The notes: generated by a model not told the origin, from the sequence alone. A stretch of DNA of 64,000 nt from an uncultured Candidatus Saccharibacteria bacterium (GCA_964469295.1 CAYXYJ010000004.1:17557-81556); one strand, 5' to 3'. Counted from the first letter of the stretch, positions 12,705 through 64,000 are shown. A program made the numbers and translations.

Positions 12705-12945
12705 CGGTGACGATGGTCTTATTGGTCAATCGTCATCAACCATTTCGTCGCTTTGTTCGAAAAAGCCAGACAAGACCCACTGGCCAAACAAATACAGGAC
12801 GATGCCACCGCCAGATATCCAGAAAAACATCCACGACATCATGATTTCCTCCTCTTTCTTTTAAAACTATACCCAGTCCCCACACTTTCCACAAGTACGA
12901 GATTGGTAGTCTGCATATGCAGACTACGGTATACTACACGCACAT

Positions 12946-18864: not shown

Positions 18865-19566
18865 CTAAAACAATTCCATGTTGTACTCCTTTGCCAAGAC
18901 TTCCAATGTGACGGCCTTATCAATCGAAAAATTTCCAACCTTTGTACGGCGTAAATTATATAATGTCGCGGGATAACCAAGTCTTTGACCAAACGCTTCG
19001 GCGAGCGAGCGAATATAGGTACCGCTACCTACTTGAAATTTAACCGTTACCAGTTGGAACTGTTTGTTATCAATGAAGAGTGCTTGGGACGTCATTAATT
19101 CGGTGGAGTAGACGTGCATGGCGCGCGCGGGCACGGGGAGCGCTTGGTGGCCTTGGCGCGCTGCGGCCCGCGCGCGCTTATACATCGGTACACCATCGAC
19201 TTTGATGGCGCTATAGGCGGAAACCGGCAGAGTGATGTCACCGTGCAGTGTGGCCAGGGTCGCGGAAATTTTTTCGGCCGAAAAAATTTCCGCCATTTCA
19301 CGCTCTGCCAACACCACCCCTTCCATATCCCCCGTACTTCGCTGTTGACCAATCAATATTTCAGCCACGTATTCTTTATCGAGTTTAACCAAAGCCGCAA
19401 GCTGCTTTGTCCACCCGCCAACGCCAACCAGCATAAGTCCTGTCGCCAGCGGATCGAGCGTCCCGGCATGACCAGCCTTTTTTACACTCAAAATCCGTCG
19501 CACGCGGGCAACGACGCCAAACGATGTCATACCGGCAGGCTTATCGATCAACAGAAGCGTTTCCAT
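18865..19566 (-). CDS. truB: tRNA pseudouridine(55) synthase
   Basis: LLIDKPAGMTSFGVVARVRR...GHAGTLDPLATGLMLVGVG catalytic Asp motif. Confidence 0.85.
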   Translation of the reverse strand: METLLLIDKPAGMTSFGVVARVRRILSVKKAGHAGTLDPLATGLMLVGVGGWTKQLAALVKLDKEYVAEILIGQQRSTGDMEGVVLAEREMAEIFSAEKISATLATLHGDITLPVSAYSAIKVDGVPMYKRARAAARQGHQALPVPARAMHVYSTELMTSQALFIDNKQFQLVTVKFQVGSGTYIRSLAEAFGQRLGYPATLYNLRRTKVGNFSIDKAVTLEVLAKEYNMELF

Positions 19567-27315: not shown

Positions 27316-27356
27316 GTCCACTCCCCCCTTTATTTTTTTGCAAATGTCTGCTATAA

Positions 27357-27392
27357 ATATGGGCACTTTTGCTATAGCAAAAGTGCCCATAT
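27357..27392. promoter_or_regulatory. perfect 36-nt palindrome ATATGGGCACTTTTGC-TATA-GCAAAAGTGCCCATAT; candidate operator or terminator
   Basis: seen in sequence; lies about 45 nt upstream of gene 26752..27315 and about 35 nt before tRNA-Glu. Confidence 0.4.
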
Positions 27393-27426
27393 TTCATTAC
27401 GTCAAAACGCAGTATACGATTTATAT

Positions 27427-32999: not shown

Positions 33000-33047
33000 C
33001 AATTAGAGAGCTGGTTCGAGCACTCGAGAAGGCTCGAATCTCGAAAC

Positions 33048-33077
33048 AAAAAACTACTCAGATCTGAGTAGTTTTTT
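33048..33077. terminator. bidirectional terminator (AAAAAACTACTCA-GATC-TGAGTAGTTTTTT)
   Basis: perfect hairpin with flanking A/T runs. Confidence 0.7.
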
Positions 33078-33666
33078 GTTATTAGCTCACAATACTTTCA
33101 TCAACCATAATTAGCTGGACGAGCCAGTCCAAGTTCTTCAACATAATCTCTCTTATCATTAGATTCACCCTTCACGATATCAAAAGAGATGTCGCTGATA
33201 CACACGATATTGATTTAGTGTATTTTGACAATATAAACATAGATGAAGAAAAAGACAGAAAACTTTCAGAGAGTATGAAAGGTGCTCTTGGCCTTGATTG
33301 GGAAATAGTTAATCAAGCTTACACACATAAATGGCACGACAGAGACACTCCGTATACGAACACTGCAGAAGGGTTGTCAGAGTGGGTAGAAACACCTACT
33401 TGCGTTGGGTGACACTAGAGAACGAAGAACCAAAGATAGTAGCTCCTCACGGGATTGATGACCTCGTTAACTTGATAGTTAGACCAACTCCAAGTCGGAA
33501 AGGTGATTTGAGTATTTTTTACAAAAGAATTGAGAGTAAAAAATGGTTAGAAAAGTGGCCCAAACTACGAGTGGTTACTGAAAGAAGATAAGAAACAAAA
33601 TCAAGAACTATATGAAAACCCCGACAGACTTGCGTCTATCGGGGTCCCCCCCTGACGGTCAGACCG

Positions 33667-44290: not shown

Positions 44291-44340
44291 AACCATATTT
44301 GTGCACAATTTTGGTGGATAACCAAACTACAAAACAAAAA

Positions 44341-44366
44341 CCCACGGGGCGCTAGCGCCCCGTGGG
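44341..44366. terminator. bidirectional terminator (CCCACGGGGCG-CTAG-CGCCCCGTGGG with A-run and T-run flanks), followed by a second hairpin at 44391-44415
   Basis: seen directly. Confidence 0.7.
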
Positions 44367-44437
44367 TTTTTGTTTTTAATATTTTATAGGAACGCGCGGC
44401 CGGAGGCCGCGCGTTTGGATGCTGGTGATCGGGCAAT

Positions 44438-48820: not shown

Positions 48821-49798
48821 TTATGGCACAACTCCCGGCGCGGTGCCGGTGCTCGTCGCCGCTGGTGCAGTAGTGGTGGCCGTGGTTGAAGCAGTTTCTG
48901 GCGTCACGAGCACTCCGGGCGGTAATGATACGGTAAATAAGTCATCACGAATATCTTTTATCAGTGCTTCGGTGGCGTTATATGACTGCGTGACAATTGG
49001 TTCCCGCGCCACTGACACATATTGCAAACTTTGTAATGATAGCGGGAGTGGGACATACCCATATTGTTCTGGTTGGGTTGGTGACGTTTCAATATCAGTA
49101 ATCACACCATATACACCCGAATCAATGGCCGGCAACACTACGACATCACCGGTATGCAACGGAATACCTTGTGGTACTCTCACCCGCAGCATACCGCCGC
49201 CGATACCTTCTGAGTAGGTATAGATGTTTGGTCCAATCACATATGCTGTAGCCGTGAAATTGGCGGTGGTCACCAACGTCACCAACGCGGTGTTACTGTA
49301 CACGGTAGATACATACCCGATTACTTGATCACTACCCAAAAACACCGCGGCGTTTTCAACTACTCCATCAACACTTCCCTGATCAATCATAAGCACATCA
49401 TAAGGCAAATATGGCGGACGGGCCGCGACCCGAGCAATGATTCGTTCATCAGGAACTGCATCACATAGTTGACGAAACTGATTATTTTCAGCTTGTAATT
49501 TAGCAATCGTGTTGTCACTGGCTTCACAGATAGCGACTTTTGCTTCTAAATCATCAATGCGAGTATCTAATGTTGTGCGATCCCGAAGATAGGTTGGTAA
49601 AGAATTTGATGATTCATTAAACCATACTCGGGCCGTTTCAATCGGCCATAACAAAACGGCCGCAGTACGAGACACGACAACTGGCACAATCAGCCACAAC
49701 AACAGCAGTATCGCTAGTACAGCGATAACAAAAAAGATACGTTTATGAAAGAAGGTTTGGCGAGAGTTCCCCTTCTTTGTCAATGAGTATTTCTTCAT
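48821..49798 (-). CDS. mreC: rod shape-determining protein MreC
   Basis: N-terminal TM and coiled-coil, beta-rich periplasmic domain, Thr/Ala-rich C-terminal tail; synteny with mreB. Confidence 0.6.
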   Translation of the reverse strand: MKKYSLTKKGNSRQTFFHKRIFFVIAVLAILLLLWLIVPVVVSRTAAVLLWPIETARVWFNESSNSLPTYLRDRTTLDTRIDDLEAKVAICEASDNTIAKLQAENNQFRQLCDAVPDERIIARVAARPPYLPYDVLMIDQGSVDGVVENAAVFLGSDQVIGYVSTVYSNTALVTLVTTANFTATAYVIGPNIYTYSEGIGGGMLRVRVPQGIPLHTGDVVVLPAIDSGVYGVITDIETSPTQPEQYGYVPLPLSLQSLQYVSVAREPIVTQSYNATEALIKDIRDDLFTVSLPPGVLVTPETASTTATTTAPAATSTGTAPGVVP

Positions 49799-50819
49799 AT
49801 TGATTTAAATTTTCTACAACAATACCGGCTCCACGAATCACTGTACGAAGTGGATCAGGAACTATAATAACCGGCACTTCAAGCACTTCTTCAAGCAGTT
49901 GCTTTAGTCCGGGAATCAATGCTCCGCCACCGGCAATGTGAATGCCACGTTGCATAATATCAGCCAGGACTTCAGGTGGAGTCTTTTCAAGCACAGATCG
50001 TACTGCTTCTACGATTGTATCAACTTGGGTCGCAATCGCGTCTCGTACATCACTATCAGTGATCGCTACTTCACGCGGCAACCCAGAAATAACATCACGA
50101 CCACGAACAATGTGTTCTTTTCCACCCTCTGGTTCATCAATAGACGCGAGTAAAATTTTGACATCTTCGGCAGTTTTTTCACCAACATAAATTTTAAATT
50201 GGTCACGAATATATGTCATAATGGCCGCGTTTAGATGATCTCCAGCCACTCGTAAATTTTTCGCGACAACAATGCCATTGATCGAAATCACCGCGATGTC
50301 AGTCGTACCGCCACCAATATCAATAATCATGCTACCGACCGCTTTACCGATTGGTAATTTGGCACCAATCGCCGCCGCCATTGGTTCTTCAATTAAAAAC
50401 ACTTCTCGGGCGCCGGCATTACGGGCGGCATCACGCGCCGCGCGCATCTCTACGTTCGTGATCCCTGACGGCACCCCCACTAATACTCGAGGCGCAATCA
50501 ATGTCCGTACCTCATTACGGACTTTATTGATAAGGTAATGCAACATTTCTTCAGTCACTTCAAAATCAAAAATTACCCCGTCAACGAGCGGACGAACAAC
50601 GTCAATATGTCCCGGAGTGCGACCCTGCATCGCACGAGCTTCGTTTCCGACCGCGATTAATTGACCAGTTTTTTTGTTCATTGCGACAATGGTCGGTTCA
50701 TTTAATACAATACCTCGACCTTTAACGTACATGAGGGTATTTGCCGTTCCTAAATCAATGGCCACATCAGTAGAAAAAGACGAAAATATTTTTTGGAAAA
50801 TGGAAGACAACCACTTCAT
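49743..50819 (-). CDS. mreB: rod shape-determining protein MreB
   Basis: actin-fold phosphate motifs IDLGTANT, DIGGGTTD; MreB-length. Confidence 0.9.
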   Translation of the reverse strand: MKWLSSIFQKIFSSFSTDVAIDLGTANTLMYVKGRGIVLNEPTIVAMNKKTGQLIAVGNEARAMQGRTPGHIDVVRPLVDGVIFDFEVTEEMLHYLINKVRNEVRTLIAPRVLVGVPSGITNVEMRAARDAARNAGAREVFLIEEPMAAAIGAKLPIGKAVGSMIIDIGGGTTDIAVISINGIVVAKNLRVAGDHLNAAIMTYIRDQFKIYVGEKTAEDVKILLASIDEPEGGKEHIVRGRDVISGLPREVAITDSDVRDAIATQVDTIVEAVRSVLEKTPPEVLADIMQRGIHIAGGGALIPGLKQLLEEVLEVPVIIVPDPLRTVIRGAGIVVENLNQYEEILIDKEGELSPNLLS

Positions 50820-56052: not shown

Positions 56053-58707
56053 TTACGATGCTTCTTTAGCGGTTTGATTCGTATGAGTAACGAGGAGTGC
56101 AATCACCTCACGCATCGGCATGTCATCAGTGATATGCAAACCGGCGGTTCGGGCAGTAATCACCACTGCTGTATAAAAGGTATCAAACAAATCTGGGTCG
56201 AATTGGTGAATACCTAACTCTGTAACTCTTTCTGTCGGACCCATCAGAGCGATATCAGTCACGTTGCGTACGGAATAATCATTTAGTAAGCGATTATACT
56301 GTTCTTGTTTTTGTTCGTATTCTGCCCGCATCGGATTGAACATATTTGGAGCGACGCCAATTACTGCTTCCATAACATCCGCGTCACTGAATTTTTCGGC
56401 AACAACTGGCATTTCGGTCAAGGCAGTATGTCCAGAGCCACTTACCTTAAGACGTTCGGCAGTCTCTAATCGATTTTTGATGGCAGTATATAATTCCGTA
56501 ATGTCGACCACCTCTCCCGGTTCGGTAACGTCCCAATCACCGTGAATAAATCCTGATGTTTCCAGCCAGGAAGCATCAGTGGTCAAACGAGCAATTTCCT
56601 CGTTAATAATTCCTTCTCGCACTGATCCGGTAATCGTTGGGGCGATTACATCAAGTGCGTGACGCAGTTCTCGTTCCACCCACATGCCTTTGGTAATTGT
56701 CAGAACACCAAATCCAGGCGTCATCGACTCAGTATTTGTATCTGCCACTGGTACATCAATAACATTCTGTTGCGATAGTAACGTCGGCATCGTTTGCGTT
56801 ATTGACGCATCAGGGGTATGAGAGACAACGTTAGGTTCTTCCATCGGAATCGAAATATTTGGTAAAGAATCTATTATTGTCGCCGTGTCAGTTGATTCGG
56901 TAAATGGTTCAAGCCGAACATCAAGCGCTTCAATAACTGGAGAGATTAATGTTGCTGGTACATCGCCAACAACAACCGGGTCGGTGTCAACAATTGAAAT
57001 TGTTTGATCATGGGTAATTGACGGTTGGTTGATGATTGATTGTGGTTCATCAAGATTAACGGCAGTTGGCCACAACGCCAATGTAGCGGCCAAAAATTGC
57101 TTTCGGGTAAAAAAGGTTGGCACCAACCGTCGCCATGATCGAGCTTTTAACTGATTAGCCGTTCGATTATATTGATCTTCAATGAATTGAATACTGAGGT
57201 CGTGTGGATATTGACGTTTGGCATTTTTTAACGTTGCCAAGAACTCGTTTTCACTGACTTCCAAATGATTGCCACGTTGAATACTCCCGTTAATACGTTT
57301 AGCATCATGGCGAAATCTTTCTTCGGCAACGCGCAGGGTATCTATCATTTGCTGTTGTGATAGTACTCTGCTGTCAACAGTAGTTTCAGTCTTTGTCTCT
57401 TCACGACCAACACGACCAACTCTCCACCCCTCCGGCGACAATACCGATTTTGTAACAGCAGTCTTAGTAATTGTCTCTGGCGACACCGTCTCTATCGATT
57501 CCCTCTTCTTATTGATCCAACCATATCTATCACCAAATAAATGCGGGTACTTTTTGGCTAATACTTCTCTCGTGGGAGGCATGGCAGGGGCGACAACAGC
57601 GACATCCGAGACCACGTCTTCAATCTTCTCCGGATTGACTTTTAAAGCCAAATCTTCGTTTACTGCGATTTCTTGATCAGTTGTCGTTTCTGTATCTAAA
57701 TTCTCTCGACCAATCGATGATTGTGGCCAGGTATCGGTCGAATCGGTTGTAGCGACCACGACTGTTTGATGAGGATTATCCGTGGATTCATCAATACTAT
57801 ACGCTGCGATTTTTTCTCTTAACGCACCGCGTCGTTTCTTTAATTGTTCCATCCGCCACGGCACCTCGGTGTGCCATCCTTTACTCTGGAGGAGCGCCTC
57901 GACTTGCCTGAGTTCTTTTTGTAATGATTCAATCTGTAAAGCAGGTAGTTCACCCACATCGGTTGGCGCTTCGTCTGTGCGTAGACTAGCATCATCCACA
58001 TCGACTATTTCTATATTCTTGTCAGGAGTGTCGGCTGGATCAATTACTCTTTCGATAGATTCAACCGCTAAAGGGTCGGTGCGTAATTTTTTCACTAATT
58101 CTATGTATTGATGGCAATCAGCCAACAAGCGTTCGGCGCAACGTTCGTATCGTTGCAAACTGGTTTCTAATTTTTCGCCAGCTAGCCTATTTACAATAAA
58201 TGTATTAACGGTCGCTTCGGTCCACGCAATAGCTTGAAACTTCTTTTTTAGACGCAACAATAACTGTTGTTCAGTTGTATGGGGTGTATCCGTAGCATCA
58301 ATAGCTAATTCTTTCGTGACGGCACTCGTGTCATTAATGATGTCATCGAGAGCCTTTTCGACAGCACGGTACCGTTCTTTGGATTCTTCAATTTGCACAA
58401 CCCATCCATTGTGTTCACGAATCATTTCCTGATATTCGTTGTCTGACACAATAGTATTCAACTCCATCGCGACACGGTCTACGACAGTTTGGTTAGCTGG
58501 TGATTCGTCAATCGTTTCAAGGAATTGATCTAACTGCAATGATAGACGATCCATTATCGTTTTACTTTTTTTACTATGACGTGCACGAATGGAAAAATGT
58601 TCTTTAGTTATCAAAATTTTCCGTCTTAATGCATCAACGATACGTTCAATATTTTCAACAGATTCAGTTGGAGCAACAGAGTAATTTGTTTCAATACGAG
58701 TACCCAT
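56053..58707 (-). CDS. large hypothetical protein (884 aa)
   Basis: ORF only; no recognised motifs. Confidence 0.35.
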   Translation of the reverse strand: MGTRIETNYSVAPTESVENIERIVDALRRKILITKEHFSIRARHSKKSKTIMDRLSLQLDQFLETIDESPANQTVVDRVAMELNTIVSDNEYQEMIREHNGWVVQIEESKERYRAVEKALDDIINDTSAVTKELAIDATDTPHTTEQQLLLRLKKKFQAIAWTEATVNTFIVNRLAGEKLETSLQRYERCAERLLADCHQYIELVKKLRTDPLAVESIERVIDPADTPDKNIEIVDVDDASLRTDEAPTDVGELPALQIESLQKELRQVEALLQSKGWHTEVPWRMEQLKKRRGALREKIAAYSIDESTDNPHQTVVVATTDSTDTWPQSSIGRENLDTETTTDQEIAVNEDLALKVNPEKIEDVVSDVAVVAPAMPPTREVLAKKYPHLFGDRYGWINKKRESIETVSPETITKTAVTKSVLSPEGWRVGRVGREETKTETTVDSRVLSQQQMIDTLRVAEERFRHDAKRINGSIQRGNHLEVSENEFLATLKNAKRQYPHDLSIQFIEDQYNRTANQLKARSWRRLVPTFFTRKQFLAATLALWPTAVNLDEPQSIINQPSITHDQTISIVDTDPVVVGDVPATLISPVIEALDVRLEPFTESTDTATIIDSLPNISIPMEEPNVVSHTPDASITQTMPTLLSQQNVIDVPVADTNTESMTPGFGVLTITKGMWVERELRHALDVIAPTITGSVREGIINEEIARLTTDASWLETSGFIHGDWDVTEPGEVVDITELYTAIKNRLETAERLKVSGSGHTALTEMPVVAEKFSDADVMEAVIGVAPNMFNPMRAEYEQKQEQYNRLLNDYSVRNVTDIALMGPTERVTELGIHQFDPDLFDTFYTAVVITARTAGLHITDDMPMREVIALLVTHTNQTAKEAS

Positions 58708-58716
58708 AACTAGTCA

Positions 58717-61551
58717 CTACAGTATAGCATCAAGTGGCGGTAACGGTGCCGTTTCTTTTATGTACCGCACGGCAATTTCAGTTTCAACGTCGGCGCGTGG
58801 ACGACCATATCGTTGACTGCTCATTGTTTTCATCTCGTTTATTCGCCTTACATCAGGAGTTTGTGGTGGCATGGTTTTCACACTAAAAGGTTTTGTTGGC
58901 ACCCCATTAGCTAACATCCGCAAAAAGCAGTGATAATTAGGAACATTCATCAAATCATTCGCACCAAACACCGGCGCAAACTGGGTCTCCAAAAACGCTG
59001 CGTCATCCGATCCTACCCGAAAGGCGGCAAGCGACCCCACATTCCCAAAGACAGCGTTTTTAATCCCTTCGTCTAATTGGGCAATAAATTGATGCGCCAC
59101 CGTCAGCGATAATTTATATTTTCTAGCCTCAGATAAAATCGAGGAAATTGATGGTGTTGAAACATTTTGAAACTCATCAATGTGGAGGAAAAACGGCGCA
59201 AAATCCATCGCTGCATTATCCACCCGTGACAAAGCCGCCATTAATAATTTTCCAACAATAATCATCCCAATTAAATTGGCGTTTATTTCTCCAAGCCGAC
59301 CTTTTGATAAGTTTACCAACAGAATTTTCTTCTCATCCATAATCTGCCGGAAATTAAATGCGCTTTTTTCTTGACCAATAATTGGTCGCATGTAGTCGTT
59401 TGCCGTAAACACATCAAATTTTGACACGATGTACGGTACGATATTTTCGAGGGAGGCTTCCCCGCCAGCTTTCGTGGCAATCTCACGCCAAAATTGAACA
59501 ACGACGGGATTTTTGGCTTTTTCCAGCTTCATCCGACGATATTTAGCATCGGCCATCACCCGACTGATATCCATGAGCGTGTTACCACTCTGAGGATCTT
59601 CCATCACAAGGAGCGTCGCATTACGGAAATATTGTTCAAACATCGGCCCCATACTTTCTGGGTTGGCTCCGTATAACTTTTGAAAAATCGAAAACAATTC
59701 GTTAACAACAAAAGTTTTCTGCTCTGGTTTCGCCACATCGTATTCGAGCATATTAAGACCAATCGGCCGATCAAGATTTGATGGATCAAAATAAATCACG
59801 TCACCCGCCCGGTCTTCTGGAATATTCCCGAGCACCTGTTCAATATCGGTACCGTGCGGGTCAATCATACACACACCATGACCGGCCTGAATATCTTGAA
59901 TAATGAGGTTTTGCAAAAAGACCGACTTACCGGTTCCGGTTTGTCCAATCACATAAAAGTGTCTCATGCGATCCTTTTCCGTCATAAAGATATCCCGTTC
60001 AACATTGCGATGTTCATTGATACCCAACAACGTTCCTTGATCCGGCATATCAGTTGGTGCTGCCGCAGTATTAGCGTGTGATTGTTTGAATTGTGGCGAC
60101 GAAACAATACCATTTCCAGGGAAATGAATAATGGTCGCTAATTCAGTTTGATTCAGTAATACAGCAGTTTTAGGATTAAACTCACGAAATGAAAAGGCTT
60201 TTTCAGCGTTTCGTAATGCCGACCGGCGGTGGTGGGTAAAGGCAAATTGGTTGCCGGTCACGTGCGAATATTGATGAAACACGGCTTCAATTTCATGCAA
60301 AATTTGTTCAGCCCGTGTAGTCGATGTCGCGGACACAGCAATACGAATGTTTGTTTCAATGATATCACTTTGCAATTTTTCATTAAATTGCTCAATTGCT
60401 TCTTGATCTGGTTCTTTCACCTCATCTCCTTCACGTTTCTGATTATTAGAAAAAAACAACCCACCAACATCAGCAAACACATCACCGGTAAATGTACTCC
60501 GTTTGATTGCCTCTTTCGGTGACATACCCTTTTTAACCCGTTTGATAATATCATCGTAGGTCTGTCGTTTCGCAGTTCCCGCATGTCTGAACACAAATTG
60601 CACCGCAGCCCCCCCACCCTCTCGTTCAATTTTAGAAAAAGCATTCAGCAACACCGCCAGCGGATCACTTTTAAATGATTCGTGGGTGCGAATCGGATAA
60701 ATGGAATGTCTTGTTTGTGATAATTCTGACACCAAACTAACGCCATTATCAACAAAAATATTATAATCATGCACTTGTTCGGTCAGTACTGCATGCGGAA
60801 ATAATGATAGGGTTTGCTTTTCAAACAATGCCACATACGGTGTTGGTACCGCTGCATAAAATATAATATCGTCACTTTTGTCTGCTACAGCAATTTCCAG
60901 AGCGACATGGAAAGCAGAATCTTTAGCGGTGATGCTCCGTAATCCGGTATAAAGTTGTTCCATCATGCCAACTAATTCGCCCAACTGATATTCCCGATCA
61001 TCAGCATTTTTTAATTCGGGCAACATGACCTCAAATAACGTCATGTGCAACATTTGCCAGGGCGGCACTCCTTCACGCAAATCTTGGGTGGTACGACCTT
61101 GTTTGATCATTGTAATCAAATGACGGTGGACTTCATCAATCACATATGGATTATCGATCTTTTCCAGCACCGACAGAGCGTTCCGCACCCCTTTTTCTAC
61201 CGCAACAGTAAGGACTTCTTCAACTGGGTTATGGGTAGTGGTGATGTGGGCTTCAAGGCTCGCCAATTCGTGATCAGCAAACAATCTATCACCACTAACG
61301 ACGACCCGCGGCGTAAACATGCTATATTCCTGCAACTCCGCTTTGGCCACGCTGGCTAATTCTTCGTGATCAGCGTCTGGTTGCATTTGCAAAAGTTCTC
61401 GTTCACGTTCAGCAATTCGTGCACGCAAAAATTCAATCTCGGCTTCAGGTGAAGAAAATGGTTTTTGTGGAAAATTCTCACGCATATTTGTATACCTTAT
61501 GATACATGAGGAGGGGCGCCGTAGGCGCCCCTCCTTCCCCACCCCAACCAT
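58717..61551 (-). CDS. VirB4/TraC/HerA-like P-loop ATPase (FtsK-HerA superfamily; candidate type IV secretion / DNA-translocation ATPase); likely start MRENFPQKP
   Basis: Walker A YVIGQTGTGKS, Walker B FFLHIDEFQN, downstream LTVAHQ and FRVGSDD blocks typical of VirB4/VirD4-like ATPases; approx 500-aa N-terminal non-ATPase domain. Confidence 0.5.
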   Translation of the reverse strand: MVGVGKEGRLRRPSSCIIRYTNMRENFPQKPFSSPEAEIEFLRARIAERERELLQMQPDADHEELASVAKAELQEYSMFTPRVVVSGDRLFADHELASLEAHITTTHNPVEEVLTVAVEKGVRNALSVLEKIDNPYVIDEVHRHLITMIKQGRTTQDLREGVPPWQMLHMTLFEVMLPELKNADDREYQLGELVGMMEQLYTGLRSITAKDSAFHVALEIAVADKSDDIIFYAAVPTPYVALFEKQTLSLFPHAVLTEQVHDYNIFVDNGVSLVSELSQTRHSIYPIRTHESFKSDPLAVLLNAFSKIEREGGGAAVQFVFRHAGTAKRQTYDDIIKRVKKGMSPKEAIKRSTFTGDVFADVGGLFFSNNQKREGDEVKEPDQEAIEQFNEKLQSDIIETNIRIAVSATSTTRAEQILHEIEAVFHQYSHVTGNQFAFTHHRRSALRNAEKAFSFREFNPKTAVLLNQTELATIIHFPGNGIVSSPQFKQSHANTAAAPTDMPDQGTLLGINEHRNVERDIFMTEKDRMRHFYVIGQTGTGKSVFLQNLIIQDIQAGHGVCMIDPHGTDIEQVLGNIPEDRAGDVIYFDPSNLDRPIGLNMLEYDVAKPEQKTFVVNELFSIFQKLYGANPESMGPMFEQYFRNATLLVMEDPQSGNTLMDISRVMADAKYRRMKLEKAKNPVVVQFWREIATKAGGEASLENIVPYIVSKFDVFTANDYMRPIIGQEKSAFNFRQIMDEKKILLVNLSKGRLGEINANLIGMIIVGKLLMAALSRVDNAAMDFAPFFLHIDEFQNVSTPSISSILSEARKYKLSLTVAHQFIAQLDEGIKNAVFGNVGSLAAFRVGSDDAAFLETQFAPVFGANDLMNVPNYHCFLRMLANGVPTKPFSVKTMPPQTPDVRRINEMKTMSSQRYGRPRADVETEIAVRYIKETAPLPPLDAIL
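61510..61540. terminator. hairpin GGAGGGGCGCC-TACG-GGCGCCCCTCC after mreB paralogue
   Basis: perfect GC stem; no strong T-run. Confidence 0.5.
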
Positions 61552-61558
61552 CCTGTCA

Positions 61559-62704
61559 TTACCGCTTCGTCAAAATTGCCCGTTTATAGGTTGCCAGATG
61601 TTCAAGCGCCGTCCCAGTACCTTTAACGACACAAAATAACGCCTGATCAGCCAAGACCGCCTTGACGCCAGTGCGTCGCTTAATAAGTTCCGGGAAATTA
61701 CGTAATTGTGACGTACCGCCGGTCATAATAATACCCGCATCAATAATGTCCGATGCTAATTCCGGTGGCGTTTCTTGAAATACATCTTTAATAGCTTTCA
61801 CCATTTCGCGCAATTCTTTGCCAATGGCGCGAACGACTTCATTGGTTTTAATTTCAGTTGTTCGTGGCAATCCGGTAAATACATCTCGTCCTTTTAAATC
61901 CATGACTAATTCTTCCTCAAGTGGTAAGGCTGACCCAACGGTAATTTTTACGTCTTCAGCAGTTTTTTCACCAATGGCTAAATTACGTGATTTTTTAACA
62001 AAATCCACAATTGCCGCGTCAATGCGATTCCCGGCACATTTGACCGAATTAGCAGCCACAATGCCGCCAAGTGAAATAACCGCAACATCAATGGTACCGC
62101 CACCAATGTCAACAATCATATGACCCTCCGCGCCATAAATCGGTACTCCGGCACCAATAGCAGCTAAAATTGGTTCTTTGACGACATAGGCATTTTTAGC
62201 ACCAGCTTTCATGGTGGCTTCGACCACCGCTCGCCGTTCGGTCGATGACACGCCGGCTGGCACTGATACCATAACGTCTGGTTTAAACAAATTATATCGA
62301 CCAAGTGCTTTATTAAGAAAATAGCGCAACATCGCTTCAGTCACTCGGTAATCAGCGATGACACCATCTTTCATAGGACGATACGCTCGAATATTATCTG
62401 GGGTGCGACCAATCATTGCTTTGGCTTCTGCTCCAACTGCCAACACCGCATTATTATCTCCAACCGCCACCACCGACGGTTCATTTAATACAATGCCCTG
62501 ACCAGGCACGTATACCAAAACACTAGTTGTTCCCAAATCAATTCCAATTTTTGGACTAAAGCGATCAAACATAGAAAAAGTCACCCCCATAGTACGAGAG
62601 TTTGTACAGTGACGCAAATGACAGGTATATAGCATATATGCTATACTTGTAAATCTATGGACAATAACATTGGAAAACGCATCGCCGACATTCGTGAAGC
62701 ACAA
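61559..62704 (-). CDS. MreB/Mbl-family actin homologue (second paralogue); likely start MFDRFSPKIGIDLGTT at approx 62571
   Basis: GIDLGTT and DIGGGT motifs; GGGGGTGA RBS. Confidence 0.75.
   Translation of the reverse strand: MCFTNVGDAFSNVIVHRFTSIAYMLYTCHLRHCTNSRTMGVTFSMFDRFSPKIGIDLGTTSVLVYVPGQGIVLNEPSVVAVGDNNAVLAVGAEAKAMIGRTPDNIRAYRPMKDGVIADYRVTEAMLRYFLNKALGRYNLFKPDVMVSVPAGVSSTERRAVVEATMKAGAKNAYVVKEPILAAIGAGVPIYGAEGHMIVDIGGGTIDVAVISLGGIVAANSVKCAGNRIDAAIVDFVKKSRNLAIGEKTAEDVKITVGSALPLEEELVMDLKGRDVFTGLPRTTEIKTNEVVRAIGKELREMVKAIKDVFQETPPELASDIIDAGIIMTGGTSQLRNFPELIKRRTGVKAVLADQALFCVVKGTGTALEHLATYKRAILTKR
62628..62645. promoter_or_regulatory. perfect 18-bp palindrome TATAGCATATATGCTATA in the divergent mreB2 / HTH-murA intergenic region (candidate operator overlapping a -10)
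   Basis: seen directly; 12 nt upstream of the HTH ORF start. Confidence 0.45.
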
Positions 62705-64000
62705 GGGTTAACCCAAACCGATCTCGCCCGGAAAATCAAAACCACTCAATCGGCCATTGCCCGGATTGAAAGTGGCACCCAAAATATCACTACAGATATG
62801 CTAAAGAAAATTAGCGGTGCGCTGGGGAAAAATTTAGTAACGCTTTCACCGGGGAGCGTTAATGTGGTCATCGAAGGTAAGAAAAAATTGTCCGGTACAA
62901 TTGAAACCAACACTTCCAAAAACGGTGCGGTTGGACTGTTATGTGCATCACTCCTTAATCGGGGTACAACCACCCTGCATCGGATGCCTCGTATTGAAGA
63001 AGTGCATCGGATTATCGAGGTTCTTGAAAGCATTGGCATGCAAGTCACTTGGAGTGGTTCAACGATAACGTTAATTCCACCGAAAAAGTACAATCTTAAA
63101 AATATCGACGTGGAAGCTGCTCGCAAGACTCGTAGTATTGTCATGTTCATTGGTGCCTTGATTCACACTTTGCCGCAATTCTCATTACCGCAATCTGGTG
63201 GTTGTAAATTAGGAAGTCGCACGGTACGTCCACATTTTTATGCGCTAGAAAATTTTGGTGTTGCGATTGAAACAACTAATGATGCATTTAAAGTTTCGTA
63301 TGCTCCGGCATCACCAACAGAGATTGTCCTATACGAATCCGGTGATACTGTCACCGAAAATGTCTTGTTTGCGGCCGCCCGGCACAGTGGTACAACTACC
63401 ATAAAATATTGTTCGGCTAACTACATGGTACAAGAAATTTGTGTCTTTTTAGAAAAGCTTGGCGTCACCATTGAAGGTATTGGTACCACGACACTGACAG
63501 TGACTGGTGTTACTGATATCAATACCAATATCGAATACACACTGGCTGAAGACCCAACTGATAGTATGTTTTTTATTGCTGCTGCTATTGTCACTCATTC
63601 CAGCATCACGATCACCCGTTGTCCAATTGAATTTCTTGAACTGGAATTATTGGTACTTGAAAAAATGGGACTGGAATATACCATCAGCAAACCGTACATC
63701 GGCGCTAACGGTCAGATAAAACTCGTTGACATAAAAATCAAACCATCAACTTTATTAGCATCACCCGAGAAGATACACTCACGTCCGTATCCAGGGTTGA
63801 ATGCAGATAACTTACCATTTTTTGCCGTCATTGCTACCCAAGCCGAAGGTCAAACGTTAATTCATGATTGGATGTACGAAAAACGAGCGATTTATTTTAC
63901 TGAATTAGAAAAATTGGGAGCTGATACTGTCTTGGCTGATCCACATCGTATTTATATCACTGGACCAACCCCACTACGAGCAACCGAACTTATTTGTCCA
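62657..64000 (+). CDS. murA: XRE-family HTH domain fused in-frame to UDP-N-acetylglucosamine 1-carboxyvinyltransferase (MurA); 3' end beyond the window
   Basis: open reading frame with no stop from ATG 62657 to the window end (not in the ORF track because open-ended); residues 1-65 form an XRE HTH (GKRIADIREAQGLTQTDLARKIKTTQSAIARIESG); residues from approx 70 align with the MurA N-terminus (VVIEGKKKLSGTIETNTSKNGAVGLLCASLL...PRIEEV). Confidence 0.7.
   Translation, partial: MDNNIGKRIADIREAQGLTQTDLARKIKTTQSAIARIESGTQNITTDMLKKISGALGKNLVTLSPGSVNVVIEGKKKLSGTIETNTSKNGAVGLLCASLLNRGTTTLHRMPRIEEVHRIIEVLESIGMQVTWSGSTITLIPPKKYNLKNIDVEAARKTRSIVMFIGALIHTLPQFSLPQSGGCKLGSRTVRPHFYALENFGVAIETTNDAFKVSYAPASPTEIVLYESGDTVTENVLFAAARHSGTTTIKYCSANYMVQEICVFLEKLGVTIEGIGTTTLTVTGVTDINTNIEYTLAEDPTDSMFFIAAAIVTHSSITITRCPIEFLELELLVLEKMGLEYTISKPYIGANGQIKLVDIKIKPSTLLASPEKIHSRPYPGLNADNLPFFAVIATQAEGQTLIHDWMYEKRAIYFTELEKLGADTVLADPHRIYITGPTPLRATELICP

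What the first reader, a model, noticed from the sequence alone, without database searches (positions are those of the whole stretch)
62620..64000. In-frame fusion of an XRE-type helix-turn-helix domain to MurA, preceded by a perfect palindromic operator
An ORF runs from ATG 62657 to the window end with no stop. Its first approx 65 residues form a complete XRE HTH. Without interruption it continues into a MurA N-terminus that aligns from the very start of canonical MurA, at residue approx 70. A GGGGAG SD and an in-frame GTG at 62864 could also allow independent MurA translation. A perfect 18-bp palindrome, TATAGCATATATGCTATA, lies 12 nt upstream, in the shared intergenic region with the divergently transcribed second mreB paralogue. 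A DNA-binding domain on the first committed enzyme of peptidoglycan synthesis is not an arrangement I know from characterised MurA proteins. It could couple cell-wall precursor flux to autoregulation, or to control of the divergent mreB.
Basis: seen in the sequence. Interest (0 to 1): 0.6.

Follow-up and report, generated by a model that had tools for sequence, protein, structure and literature searches.

The report
Self-repressing MurA with built-in DNA-binding domain
The first enzyme of cell-wall synthesis (MurA) is here genuinely fused to a DNA-binding domain that most likely shuts off its own promoter; the fusion is not unique to this genome but is a widespread family (many ultra-small "CPR" bacteria and Streptomyces MurA2), and I found no paper describing its regulatory half.

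Summary
ATG 62657 opens a reading frame with no stop to the window end. It encodes an XRE-type HTH (res 9-61) joined by about 12 residues to a MurA-type domain (from res 69). The perfect palindrome TATAGCATATATGCTATA lies at 62628-62645, 11 nt before the ATG, not 12. The divergent neighbour is an mreB paralogue.

The fusion is real but not rare. At least 587 species-representative genomes encode it: many Patescibacteria/CPR lineages, Nonomuraea and Streptomyces, where it sits at the murA2 locus. Databases already name it MurA or "HTH domain-containing protein".

The new result is the operator. A palindrome AT-NN-CA-N4-TG-NN-AT lies just upstream in 64 of 83 fusion loci, against 0.005 expected per region. 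It usually ends 12 nt before the start codon and overlaps an extended -10. Its sequence co-varies with a residue at the recognition helix. Unfused close relatives lack it.

All 83 proteins keep nine MurA catalytic or binding residues. The best reading is an active MurA that represses its own leaderless promoter. Ligand gating is only inferred.

The internal GGGGAG/GTG start is not conserved (2 of 83). Control of mreB is unsupported outside one clade. No searched paper describes the HTH or the operator.

The parts
62657..64000 (+). HTH-murA fusion gene: the first 448 of 500 codons, cut by the window end
   Evidence: Open frame with no stop. 100% identical to the 500-aa P0001. Pfam HTH_3 plus EPSP_synthase. 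Full-length P0001 scores 314.7 bits on NCBIfam NF006873 (MurA subfamily, cutoff 297) but 301.3 bits on the TIGR01072 equivalog (cutoff 392.7).
62657..62824 (+). XRE/Cro-C1-type helix-turn-helix domain (res 1-56). The recognition helix is res 31-39 (62747-62773), preceded by Thr30.
   Evidence: Pfam HTH_3 res 9-61, E 6.8e-16. AlphaFold2 helices at 5-15, 20-26, 31-39 and 46-56. Nearest solved HTHs are DBP48, MBF1/EDF1, PezA and 434 repressor.
62825..62860 (+). Short linker (res 57-68, ...KNLVTLSPGSVN). Its length is nearly invariant across the family.
   Evidence: Low pLDDT, with res 63-65 below 50. Linker length varies by at most about 2 residues in 83 orthologues, with no stop or frameshift.
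62861..64000 (+). MurA (enolpyruvyl transferase) domain, res 69-448 of 69-500. The Cys115-equivalent codon TGT is at 63203-63205 and the Lys22 equivalent is Lys88.
   Evidence: Alignment to solved MurA chains. Foldseek top hits are all MurA, TM-score by target 0.86-0.92. K22, N23, R91, C115, R120, D305, R331, R371 and R397 equivalents are kept in 83 of 83; D369 is Ala in 82 of 83.
62628..62645 (.). Predicted operator: perfect 18-bp palindrome TATAGCATATATGCTATA. The family core is ATAGCA-N4-TGCTAT at 62629-62644.
   Evidence: It is the only conserved block in the mreB-murA intergenic alignment of 12 species. The family-wide motif is in 64 of 83 loci against 21 hits in 571 kb of background. It co-varies with the HTH residue TTQ/TSQ. 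It is largely absent from unfused relatives: 2 of 17 against 37 of 63, Fisher p = 7e-4.
62618..62647 (+). Sigma-70-type promoter of HTH-murA: -35 ATGACA (62618-62623), 18-nt spacer, TG (62639-62640), -10 TATACT (62642-62647). The operator fills the spacer and overlaps the extended -10. The ATG lies 9 nt after the -10, so the mRNA is leaderless or nearly so.
   Evidence: Promoter scan: 10 of 12 matches with TG upstream. No SD before the ATG. An SD-like motif precedes the start in only 2 of 83 orthologues. The modal distance from operator end to start codon is 12 nt; 43 of 64 fall within 7-14 nt.
61559..62572 (-). Divergent mreB paralogue. It shares the 84-nt intergenic region, but this neighbourhood is clade-specific.
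   Evidence: Pfam MreB_Mbl 5.7e-126. It is the divergent neighbour in 19 Kaiser-like loci only.
62851..62866 (+). GGGGAG plus in-frame GTG (codon 70). This is incidental coding sequence (Pro-Gly-Ser ... Val), not a conserved internal start.
   Evidence: Present in the window. A start codon with an SD-like motif at the junction occurs in 2 of 83 orthologues. Residue 70 is I, L, F, V or H in the orthologues.

Best explanation
The locus encodes one 500-aa polypeptide. An XRE-type HTH is tethered by a short linker of fixed length to a MurA-type enolpyruvyl transferase that looks catalytically complete.

The HTH, presumably as a dimer, binds the palindrome ATAGCA-N4-TGCTAT. This site occupies the spacer and extended -10 of the gene's own promoter, so the protein represses its own leaderless transcript. 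The amount of the first committed peptidoglycan enzyme is thereby set by direct negative feedback.

The window gene is an ordinary orthologue of an old family. The family is shared by many Patescibacteria and by Actinomycetota, where the Streptomyces copy sits at the murA2 locus.

Shown here:
- the fusion itself;
- conservation of nine MurA catalytic or binding residues;
- the promoter and operator geometry;
- family-wide linkage of the operator to the HTH.

Inferred:
- actual DNA binding, and its sign (repression);
- dimerisation;
- enzymatic activity on UDP-GlcNAc;
- any modulation of DNA binding by MurA ligands (UDP-GlcNAc, PEP, UDP-MurNAc).
For: Fusion is real and selected: 120 of 120 top homologues carry HTH plus EPSP_synthase at about 500 aa. 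At least 587 species genomes encode it. 83 distinct orthologues have near-constant linker length.

Enzyme: the MurA fold is supported (Foldseek TM 0.86-0.92; PDB phmmer 2.7e-49). Nine catalytic or binding residues are invariant in 83 of 83. The full-length protein passes the NCBIfam MurA subfamily cutoff.

Operator:
- The strict motif lies upstream in 64 of 83 loci, against 0.005 expected per region. Four more loci have it at -152 to -265.
- It is the only conserved block in otherwise unalignable intergenic DNA.
- It persists as an AT-rich site, ATCTCATATCTGAGAT, in Streptomyces loci, 11-12 nt before the ATG.
- It persists before 29-39%-identical degenerate members.
- Half-site changes are symmetric and track the residue before the recognition helix. 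All 15 TTQ proteins have ATAGCA in at least one half-site (13 in both). None of 49 TSQ proteins does.
- Unfused close relatives mostly lack it: 2 of 17 against 37 of 63, p = 7e-4.

Geometry: the operator lies inside the -35/-10 spacer and overlaps TG-n-TATACT. The start codon is 9 nt after the -10, and 81 of 83 orthologues have no SD.
Against: - No binding, expression or activity data exist. None of the papers I found on Streptomyces murA2 mentions an HTH or autoregulation.
- The TTQ/TSQ covariation follows clade boundaries, so it may reflect only one or two evolutionary events.
- MurA is usually monomeric, and nothing here shows how a dimer forms on the palindrome.
- The AlphaFold model gives no confident HTH-MurA interface (linker pLDDT about 61), so allosteric coupling is unproven.
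- The D369 equivalent is Ala, and the protein fails the TIGR01072 equivalog cutoff (301 against 392.7 bits). Identical chemistry or substrate is therefore not guaranteed.
- 19 of 83 loci lack the strict motif within 130 nt, although most show near-matches.
- Each half-site (TGCTAT / TGATAT) is itself an extended -10-like element, so part of the conservation could be promoter rather than operator.
Confidence: 0.7

Rival explanations
1. The MurA-like domain is mainly a sensor. The protein would be a transcription factor for cell-wall genes whose effector domain derives from MurA. It reads UDP-sugar or PEP levels, and its catalysis is secondary, absent, or directed at another substrate (as in NikO). 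A separate MurA would do the housekeeping.
For: - Degenerate family members have lost the K22, C115, R371 and R397 equivalents. They still keep the HTH and the same operator. They lie beside a separate murA, mur ligases and murB.
- Streptomyces is reported to have a second MurA-type enzyme besides MurA2 (PMC12161575).
- The protein fails the TIGR01072 equivalog cutoff, and D369 is Ala.
- NikO, an enolpyruvyl transferase with a different substrate, is a detectable relative (2e-23).
Against: - In the window's clade and in 83 of 83 species orthologues, nine catalytic or binding residues are invariant.
- Unfused proteins of the same subfamily, 60-65% identical, occur as stand-alone MurA-like genes. 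This fits an orthologous working enzyme.
- No second murA lies in the 64-kb window. Whole genomes could not be checked.
Confidence: 0.15
2. The palindrome is not the fused HTH's operator. It would instead be promoter architecture (two back-to-back extended -10 elements, TGCTATACT on the + strand and TGCTATATA on the - strand, giving divergent transcription of murA and mreB) or the site of another regulator. The HTH would act elsewhere.
For: Each half-site reads TG-n-TAT, the start of an extended -10. In the window's clade a divergent gene, mreB, shares the region.
Against: - The palindrome persists where there is no divergent mreB. In Streptomyces the upstream gene is on the same strand.
- It persists in Streptomyces loci as ATCTCA-N4-TGAGAT.
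- It tracks presence or absence of the HTH among close MurA relatives.
- Its variable positions change symmetrically, in step with the HTH sequence.
- The scan called no - strand promoter in the intergenic region.
Confidence: 0.08
3. The HTH is a protein-protein module like the XRE-type HTH of RodZ. It would tether MurA to MreB filaments, matching the adjacent mreB paralogue, rather than bind DNA.
For: RodZ's cytoplasmic HTH binds MreB (established knowledge; the RodZ literature surfaced). The gene is divergent from mreB in the window's clade.
Against: - A conserved, co-varying palindrome sits at the promoter.
- The mreB neighbourhood is restricted to one clade.
- The best Pfam match is HTH_3, and the RodZ-type HTH_25 model is not among the hits.
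- The invariant Q31, S32 and R36 align with the base-contacting Q28, Q29 and Q33 of 434 repressor. This is my own alignment, using coordinates and prior knowledge of the 434 complex.
Confidence: 0.05
4. Two products are made: the fusion, and a stand-alone MurA translated from the internal GTG 62864 behind GGGGAG.
For: The motif is present in the window with 7-nt spacing.
Against: Only 2 of 83 orthologues have any in-frame start codon with an SD-like motif at the junction. Codon 70 is a start codon in 2 of 83. The GGGGAG arises from the conserved Pro-Gly-Ser codons.
Confidence: 0.03

Closest known systems
Streptomyces MurA2 (SCO5998 / sven5810 / vnz_28735)
   Same: - Same architecture and family. 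The Streptomyces proteins are 509 aa and 52-53% identical over res 5-500. They carry HTH_3 plus EPSP_synthase.
- Same operator type, ATCTCA-N4-TGAGAT, 11-12 nt before the ATG.
- The locus lies beside aconitase, as published for SCO5998/SCO5999.
- A sequence resembling the published SCO5998 SigB-dependent promoter lies about 340 nt upstream (28 of 36 matches in L081).
   Different: - It is reported as one of two such enzymes in S. coelicolor.
- It is a BldM-WhiI (sporulation) target, and SigB-dependent.
- A small DUF4236 gene, not mreB, lies upstream.
- The papers treat it simply as a MurA paralogue. The passages I read mention no HTH and no autoregulation.
- I did not have the SCO5998 sequence itself, so the identity rests on synteny and promoter similarity.
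Canonical MurA (E. coli / E. cloacae; PDB 1UAE, 1EJC and others)
   Same: Same two-domain inside-out alpha/beta barrel fold (TM by target about 0.9). The Lys22, Asn23, Arg91, Cys115, Arg120, Asp305, Arg331, Arg371 and Arg397 equivalents are kept.
   Different: - It has an N-terminal HTH, which no solved MurA chain has.
- Sequence identity is only 22-28%.
- Asp369 is Ala.
- It scores below the TIGR01072 equivalog cutoff.
Enzyme-repressor fusions ('trigger enzymes'): BirA, PutA, NadR
   Same: Same logic, by inference. A working metabolic enzyme carries a DNA-binding domain and represses its own gene or pathway at an operator overlapping the promoter. In these precedents the enzyme's ligand state controls DNA binding (established knowledge).
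   Different: - The enzyme fold is different, and so is the DNA-binding class (XRE HTH, against winged HTH in BirA and ribbon-helix-helix in PutA).
- No evidence here for ligand control.
- No cell-wall enzyme is among these three precedents.
BzdR / BoxR (XRE HTH fused to a shikimate-kinase-like sensor domain)
   Same: Same HTH class fused through a short linker to a domain derived from a metabolic enzyme. NCBIfam NF006015, 'anaerobic benzoate catabolism transcriptional regulator', matches res 4-63 (E 2.4e-7 to 2.9e-7). The degenerate HTH-MurA-like members (P0172, P0184) resemble this pseudo-enzyme design most closely.
   Different: The BzdR effector domain is non-catalytic and senses benzoyl-CoA (established knowledge). 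The window protein keeps a full catalytic residue set.
434 / lambda-type Cro-C1 repressors
   Same: Same HTH fold, a palindromic operator overlapping the promoter, and autoregulation. The repressor mRNA is leaderless, as for lambda cI from PRM (established knowledge). 434 repressor matches res 5-61.
   Different: These are phage immunity proteins with a dedicated dimerisation domain, not an enzyme.

Membership tests
MurA (UDP-GlcNAc 1-carboxyvinyltransferase) | EPSP-synthase/MurA two-domain fold | tested here: met
   Pfam PF00275, E 1.1e-37. AlphaFold2 model pLDDT 87.7. The Foldseek top 45 hits are MurA or NikO, TM by target 0.82-0.92.
MurA (UDP-GlcNAc 1-carboxyvinyltransferase) | Catalytic and substrate-binding residues (E. 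coli K22, N23, R91, C115, R120, D305, R331, R371, R397) | tested here: met
   Equivalents K88, N89, R159, C183, R188, D384, R410, R452 and R478 are invariant in 83 of 83 orthologues.
MurA (UDP-GlcNAc 1-carboxyvinyltransferase) | Asp369 equivalent | tested here: not met
   Ala450 (motif PPALRP) in 82 of 83 and Gly in 1. The unfused relative P0224 also has Ala.
MurA (UDP-GlcNAc 1-carboxyvinyltransferase) | Curated NCBIfam score thresholds | tested here: inconclusive
   Full-length P0001 passes the subfamily model NF006873 (314.7, cutoff 297). It fails the equivalog models TIGR01072 (301.3, cutoff 392.7) and NF009470 (212.6, cutoff 552).
MurA (UDP-GlcNAc 1-carboxyvinyltransferase) | Enolpyruvyl transfer from PEP to UDP-GlcNAc; essential or sole MurA of the cell | not testable with these tools
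   No assay is possible. Whole genomes could not be read. No second murA lies in the 64-kb window.
XRE / Cro-C1 HTH transcription regulators (PF01381) | HTH_3 domain above the curated threshold | tested here: met
   58.5 bits against a cutoff of 23, res 9-61. Four helices in the model.
XRE / Cro-C1 HTH transcription regulators (PF01381) | Cognate palindromic operator at a regulated promoter | tested here: met
   Comparative evidence only. The motif is upstream in 64 of 83 loci and overlaps the -10 and spacer. It co-varies with the HTH. It is largely absent in unfused relatives.
XRE / Cro-C1 HTH transcription regulators (PF01381) | Sequence-specific DNA binding as a dimer | not testable with these tools
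   Needs EMSA, footprinting or ChIP. Only a monomer could be modelled.
Trigger enzymes (BirA / PutA / NadR type) | One polypeptide with an active enzyme and a DNA-binding domain that regulates its own pathway | tested here: inconclusive
   The architecture and the operator at its own promoter are met. Activity and regulation were not measured.
Trigger enzymes (BirA / PutA / NadR type) | DNA binding controlled by the enzyme's substrate or product state | not testable with these tools
   The model shows no confident inter-domain interface.
RodZ-like MreB-binding HTH | HTH_25-type domain followed by a transmembrane segment and a periplasmic domain | tested here: not met
   The Pfam hits are HTH_3, HTH_19, HTH_31, HTH_37, HTH_26 and HTH_92, not HTH_25. 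The MurA domain follows directly.

The most novel reading that the evidence does not exclude
HTH-MurA is a metabolite-gated trigger enzyme. The open/closed transition of MurA on binding UDP-GlcNAc and PEP, or the feedback ligand UDP-MurNAc, is passed through the short fixed-length linker. It changes HTH dimer geometry and operator affinity. Transcription of the first committed peptidoglycan gene would then read the precursor pool directly, with no separate regulator. This would be an ancient, minimal cell-wall homeostat, shared by transcription-factor-poor CPR bacteria and by Streptomyces MurA2. Catalytically dead descendants would have become dedicated regulators of mur genes.
Probability: 0.3. 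Interest if true: 0.8.

Novelty: new variant of a known kind. Interest (0 to 1): 0.58.

Why it matters
MurA is the fosfomycin target and the entry point of peptidoglycan synthesis. The controls I know of are post-translational: ClpCP/ReoM proteolysis in Firmicutes, feedback by UDP-MurNAc, and partner proteins.

A MurA that carries its own repressor domain and a deeply conserved operator would be a direct transcriptional feedback loop built into the enzyme. It occurs in lineages where regulation is otherwise obscure (Patescibacteria/CPR, including Saccharibacteria). It also occurs in a genetically tractable model: Streptomyces murA2, already known as a sporulation target of BldM-WhiI.

The hypothesis can therefore be tested at once with standard Streptomyces tools. 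The result would then transfer to bacteria that cannot be cultured.

The family also offers natural enzyme and pseudo-enzyme pairs for studying how enzymes become regulators.

For this particular window the gene is an ordinary orthologue. The value lies in the family-level observation.

Tried and rejected
- **Assembly or frameshift artefact at the junction.** Rejected. Hundreds of independent assemblies carry the same fusion with near-constant linker length.
- **Internal GTG/SD start.** Rejected as a conserved feature: 2 of 83.
- **Regulon search.** Scanning the 64-kb window for further operator copies found none of the Kaiser type with up to 1 mismatch. One 2-mismatch hit (8230) and two loose generic hits (35575, 56120) were not followed up.
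- **mreB co-regulation.** The neighbourhood holds only in the Kaiser-like clade. The scan predicts no - strand promoter overlapping the palindrome. By eye, a weak TTGCGT-17-TACTAT candidate would put the operator upstream of the mreB -35. This stays open for this clade only.
- **The repeat finder** did not report the palindrome because its arms are contiguous. I confirmed it by direct reading, by the DNA search and by a script.
- **Source contig.** An exact look-up of P0001 to fetch it failed because the protein is not on record. Orthologous loci were used instead.
- **Literature.** Eight searches found no description of an HTH on MurA/MurA2 or of the operator. Two word-start hits were only 'Murakami' and 'muralytic'. 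Subscription-only papers are not covered.
- **Sole MurA?** I could not establish whether the fusion is the only MurA in CPR genomes.
- **Fuzzy regex search** for the published SCO5998 promoter timed out. A simple Hamming scan replaced it.
- **Structure prediction** gave a good MurA model, but no confident placement of the HTH relative to it. It neither supports nor refutes allostery.
Full report
**1. What is in the sequence**

Translating 62657-64000 gives 448 codons with no stop. The product is 100% identical to the first 448 residues of a 500-aa public protein, P0001.

Pfam places an HTH_3 (XRE/Cro-C1) domain at res 9-61 (E 6.8e-16). It places an EPSP_synthase/MurA domain at res 73-436 (E 1.1e-37). 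NCBIfam MurA models align from res 70 to model position 4, so the MurA part starts at its normal N-terminus.

The palindrome TATAGCATATATGCTATA is perfect and lies at 62628-62645, 11 nt before the ATG.

The divergent neighbour at 61559-62572 is an MreB (5.7e-126). A second mreB lies at 49773-50789 with 42% identity.

GGGGAG (62851-62856) and the in-frame GTG (62864-62866) are also present.

Perfect palindromes are not rare in this window. There are 13 of at least 14 bp, and the four longest (32-46 bp) look like terminators. The palindrome matters because it is conserved across species, as shown in section 4.

**2. The fusion is real, old and widespread**

- All 120 best database homologues are about 500 aa and carry both domains. 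Where named, they come from Kaiserbacteria, Paceibacteria or Parcubacteria.
- A search of 1.84 billion cluster representatives with res 1-160 found many clusters spanning both domains. Some full-length proteins there are only 29-52% identical.
- The best 80 genomes include Kaiser-, Taylor-, Uhr-, Lipton-, Doudna-, Nomura- and Zambryskibacteria, and many Saccharibacteria including Nanosynbacter. They also include Actinomycetota MAGs and cultured Streptomyces.
- Nonomuraea has the fusion too.
- In Streptomyces the protein is near-universal. One 90%-identity cluster has 4337 members.
- The Streptomyces gene sits beside aconitase, as published for SCO5998 (murA2) and SCO5999. A sequence resembling the published SigB-dependent SCO5998 promoter lies about 340 nt upstream in two Streptomyces loci.

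I therefore equate the Streptomyces orthologue with murA2. This rests on synteny, not on the SCO5998 sequence itself.

Papers describe murA2 as a BldM-WhiI target, as SigB-dependent and as a possible DmdR1 target. None of the passages I read mentions the HTH.

Across 83 distinct orthologues the linker length varies by at most about two residues. None has a stop or frameshift.

**3. The enzyme half looks competent**

- The alignment to solved MurA chains, mapped onto the family alignment, shows nine conserved positions. The equivalents of K22, N23, R91, C115, R120, D305, R331, R371 and R397 are invariant in 83 of 83 proteins. D369 is Ala in 82 of 83.
- The AlphaFold2 model (pLDDT 87.7, pTM 0.84) superposes on MurA structures with a target-normalised TM-score of 0.86-0.92.
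- Full-length P0001 passes the NCBIfam MurA subfamily model (314.7 bits, cutoff 297). It fails the TIGR01072 equivalog (301.3 bits, cutoff 392.7). The same holds for Streptomyces MurA2 and for an unfused relative.

This is therefore a divergent MurA subfamily. Activity on UDP-GlcNAc is likely but untested.

Unfused proteins of the same subfamily exist. They are 60-65% identical to the fused MurA domain and begin exactly at the junction. The HTH has thus been gained or lost within one orthologous group.

**4. The palindrome is a family-wide operator tied to the HTH**

- Reading 70 nt upstream of each orthologue shows a palindrome of the same design in nearly every lineage. The forms are:
  - TATAGCATATATGCTATA in the Kaiser-like clade;
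  - TATATCA(T/C)AT(A/G)TGATATA in other Paceibacteria and in Saccharibacteria;
  - ATCTCATATCTGAGAT in Streptomyces, an AT-rich site within G+C-rich upstream DNA.
- The strict pattern AT-NN-CA-N4-TG-NN-AT occurs within 130 nt upstream in 64 of 83 loci. The remaining 571 kb of locus sequence holds 21 hits, or 0.005 per equivalent region.
- Four more loci have the motif at -152 to -265. Most of the rest show one-mismatch versions.
- In an alignment of the mreB-murA intergenic region from 12 Kaiser-like species, the palindrome is the only conserved block.
- The variable half-site positions change symmetrically, in step with the residue before the recognition helix. All 15 'TTQSA' proteins have ATAGCA in at least one half-site (13 in both). 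None of 49 'TSQSA' proteins does. The Streptomyces 'TSQSAVNRIE' type goes with ATCTCA. This pattern follows clades, so it reflects few independent events.
- By my alignment to 434 repressor (coordinates), the invariant Q31, S32 and R36 fall on its base-contacting Q28, Q29 and Q33. The variable T/S30 falls on T27.
- As a negative control, I analysed 80 independently retrieved metagenome loci of the same MurA subfamily. The motif is upstream of 37 of 63 fused genes. It is upstream of only 2 of 17 unfused genes, and both of those hits are asymmetric (Fisher p = 7e-4). No separate HTH gene was found near the unfused genes.
- Two highly divergent members have lost the catalytic residues but keep ATATCA-N4-TGATAT directly before their start codons. 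They lie among murA, mur-ligase and murB genes.

**5. Geometry and mechanism**

The promoter scan finds -35 ATGACA (62618-62623), an 18-nt spacer and a TG-extended -10 TATACT (62642-62647), with 10 of 12 matches.

The palindrome fills the spacer and overlaps the TG and the first four bases of the -10. A bound dimer would therefore exclude RNA polymerase.

The ATG is 9 nt after the -10 and no SD precedes it. The same holds family-wide:
- the modal distance from motif end to start codon is 12 nt (23 of 64 loci);
- 43 of 64 loci fall within 7-14 nt;
- only 2 of 83 loci have an SD-like motif.

In Streptomyces the operator is followed by a TAnnnT -10-like hexamer and the ATG. The transcript is thus leaderless or nearly so, as is common for Cro/CI-type repressors.

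The best-supported mechanism is negative autoregulation of a bifunctional enzyme-repressor. Whether MurA ligands modulate binding is inference only. The linker is short and of fixed length, but it has low model confidence and no interface is predicted.

**6. What is not supported**

- The internal GGGGAG/GTG start is incidental. Only 2 of 83 orthologues have a start codon with an SD-like motif at the junction.
- mreB is the divergent neighbour only in the Kaiser-like clade, in 19 loci. The operator stays with the fusion gene wherever it is found. Control of mreB is therefore at most a clade-specific side effect, and no overlapping - strand promoter was predicted.
- Only one operator copy occurs in the 64-kb window.

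**7. Comparison and novelty**

The protein is a member of the XRE HTH family and of a divergent MurA subfamily. It works, by inference, like the enzyme-repressors BirA, PutA and NadR. Its degenerate relatives resemble BzdR-type regulators (XRE HTH plus an enzyme-derived sensor).

No solved structure covers an HTH-MurA. Eight literature searches found no description of the HTH or its operator.

The existence of the fusion is already recorded in databases, so the window gene is itself an ordinary orthologue. The regulatory design, meaning the conserved operator, the leaderless promoter, the co-variation and the pseudo-enzyme derivatives, appears undescribed. It can be tested directly in Streptomyces.

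I rate it a new variant of a known kind, with moderate to fairly high interest.

**8. Limits**

- No experiment supports binding, repression or catalysis.
- I could not establish whether the fusion is the sole MurA in CPR genomes.
- The co-variation is phylogenetically clustered.
- Part of the motif's conservation may reflect its dual role as an extended -10 element.

Noticed in passing
window 12906-12927: A perfect 22-bp palindrome, GTAGTCTGCATATGCAGACTAC, is followed 2 nt later by TATACT. It looks like another operator sitting on a -10 element, for an unidentified regulator.
   Followed up: no
window 19262-19293, 27355-27394, 33045-33080, 44331-44376: Very long perfect palindromes of 32-46 bp; two or three have G+C-rich cores flanked by A/T runs. 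They look like bidirectional intrinsic terminators.
   Followed up: no
window 49773-50789 (-): A second MreB homologue, 42% identical to the one beside HTH-murA. The genome therefore carries at least two mreB paralogues within 13 kb.
   Followed up: partly
window 56053-58707 (-) and 58717-61551 (-): Two large ORFs of 884 and 944 aa lie next to mreB. The syntenic genes in L001 (1146 and 920 aa) carry DUF8128 and a weak DUF87 hit, suggesting an ATPase. Function is unknown, but they are conserved neighbours in at least some relatives.
   Followed up: no
L036, L038, L043, L048, L049, L066 at +142 from the start codon: Saccharibacteria-type loci carry a second operator-like site, ATATCAG(C/T)CTTGA(T/G)AT, inside the HTH coding region. 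It could be a second operator allowing looping, or simply conserved codons for NISL(D/E)M.
   Followed up: no
L088 3498-5003 (P0172) and L087 5001-6467 (P0184): Degenerate HTH-MurA-like proteins have lost the K22, C115, R371 and R397 equivalents. They keep the HTH and an ATATCA-N4-TGATAT site at their start. They sit beside a separate murA-like gene and mur ligases (L088), or beside murB and relA/spoT (L087). They are probably pseudo-enzyme regulators of cell-wall genes.
   Followed up: partly
L059-L086 (Streptomyces) against L036-L049, L078, L083 (Saccharimonadales): Outside their own phylum, actinobacterial MurA2 proteins are closest to the Saccharimonadales versions (62-66% identity, against 55-57% to other CPR). 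Both share the 'TSQSA(I/V)NRIE' helix. This hints at gene transfer between Saccharibacteria and Actinomycetota; Saccharibacteria are known (my own knowledge) to live as epibionts on Actinomycetota.
   Followed up: partly
window 62583-62601 (-): A terminator-like hairpin call in the mreB 5' region includes the mreB Shine-Dalgarno sequence (GGGGGTGA). It may be a chance call or an SD-sequestering structure.
   Followed up: no
L102 and L106 (unfused MurA loci): Two unfused relatives keep an asymmetric remnant...TGCTAT, 10-12 nt before the start. This could be a leftover half-operator or -10 element after loss of the HTH.
   Followed up: no
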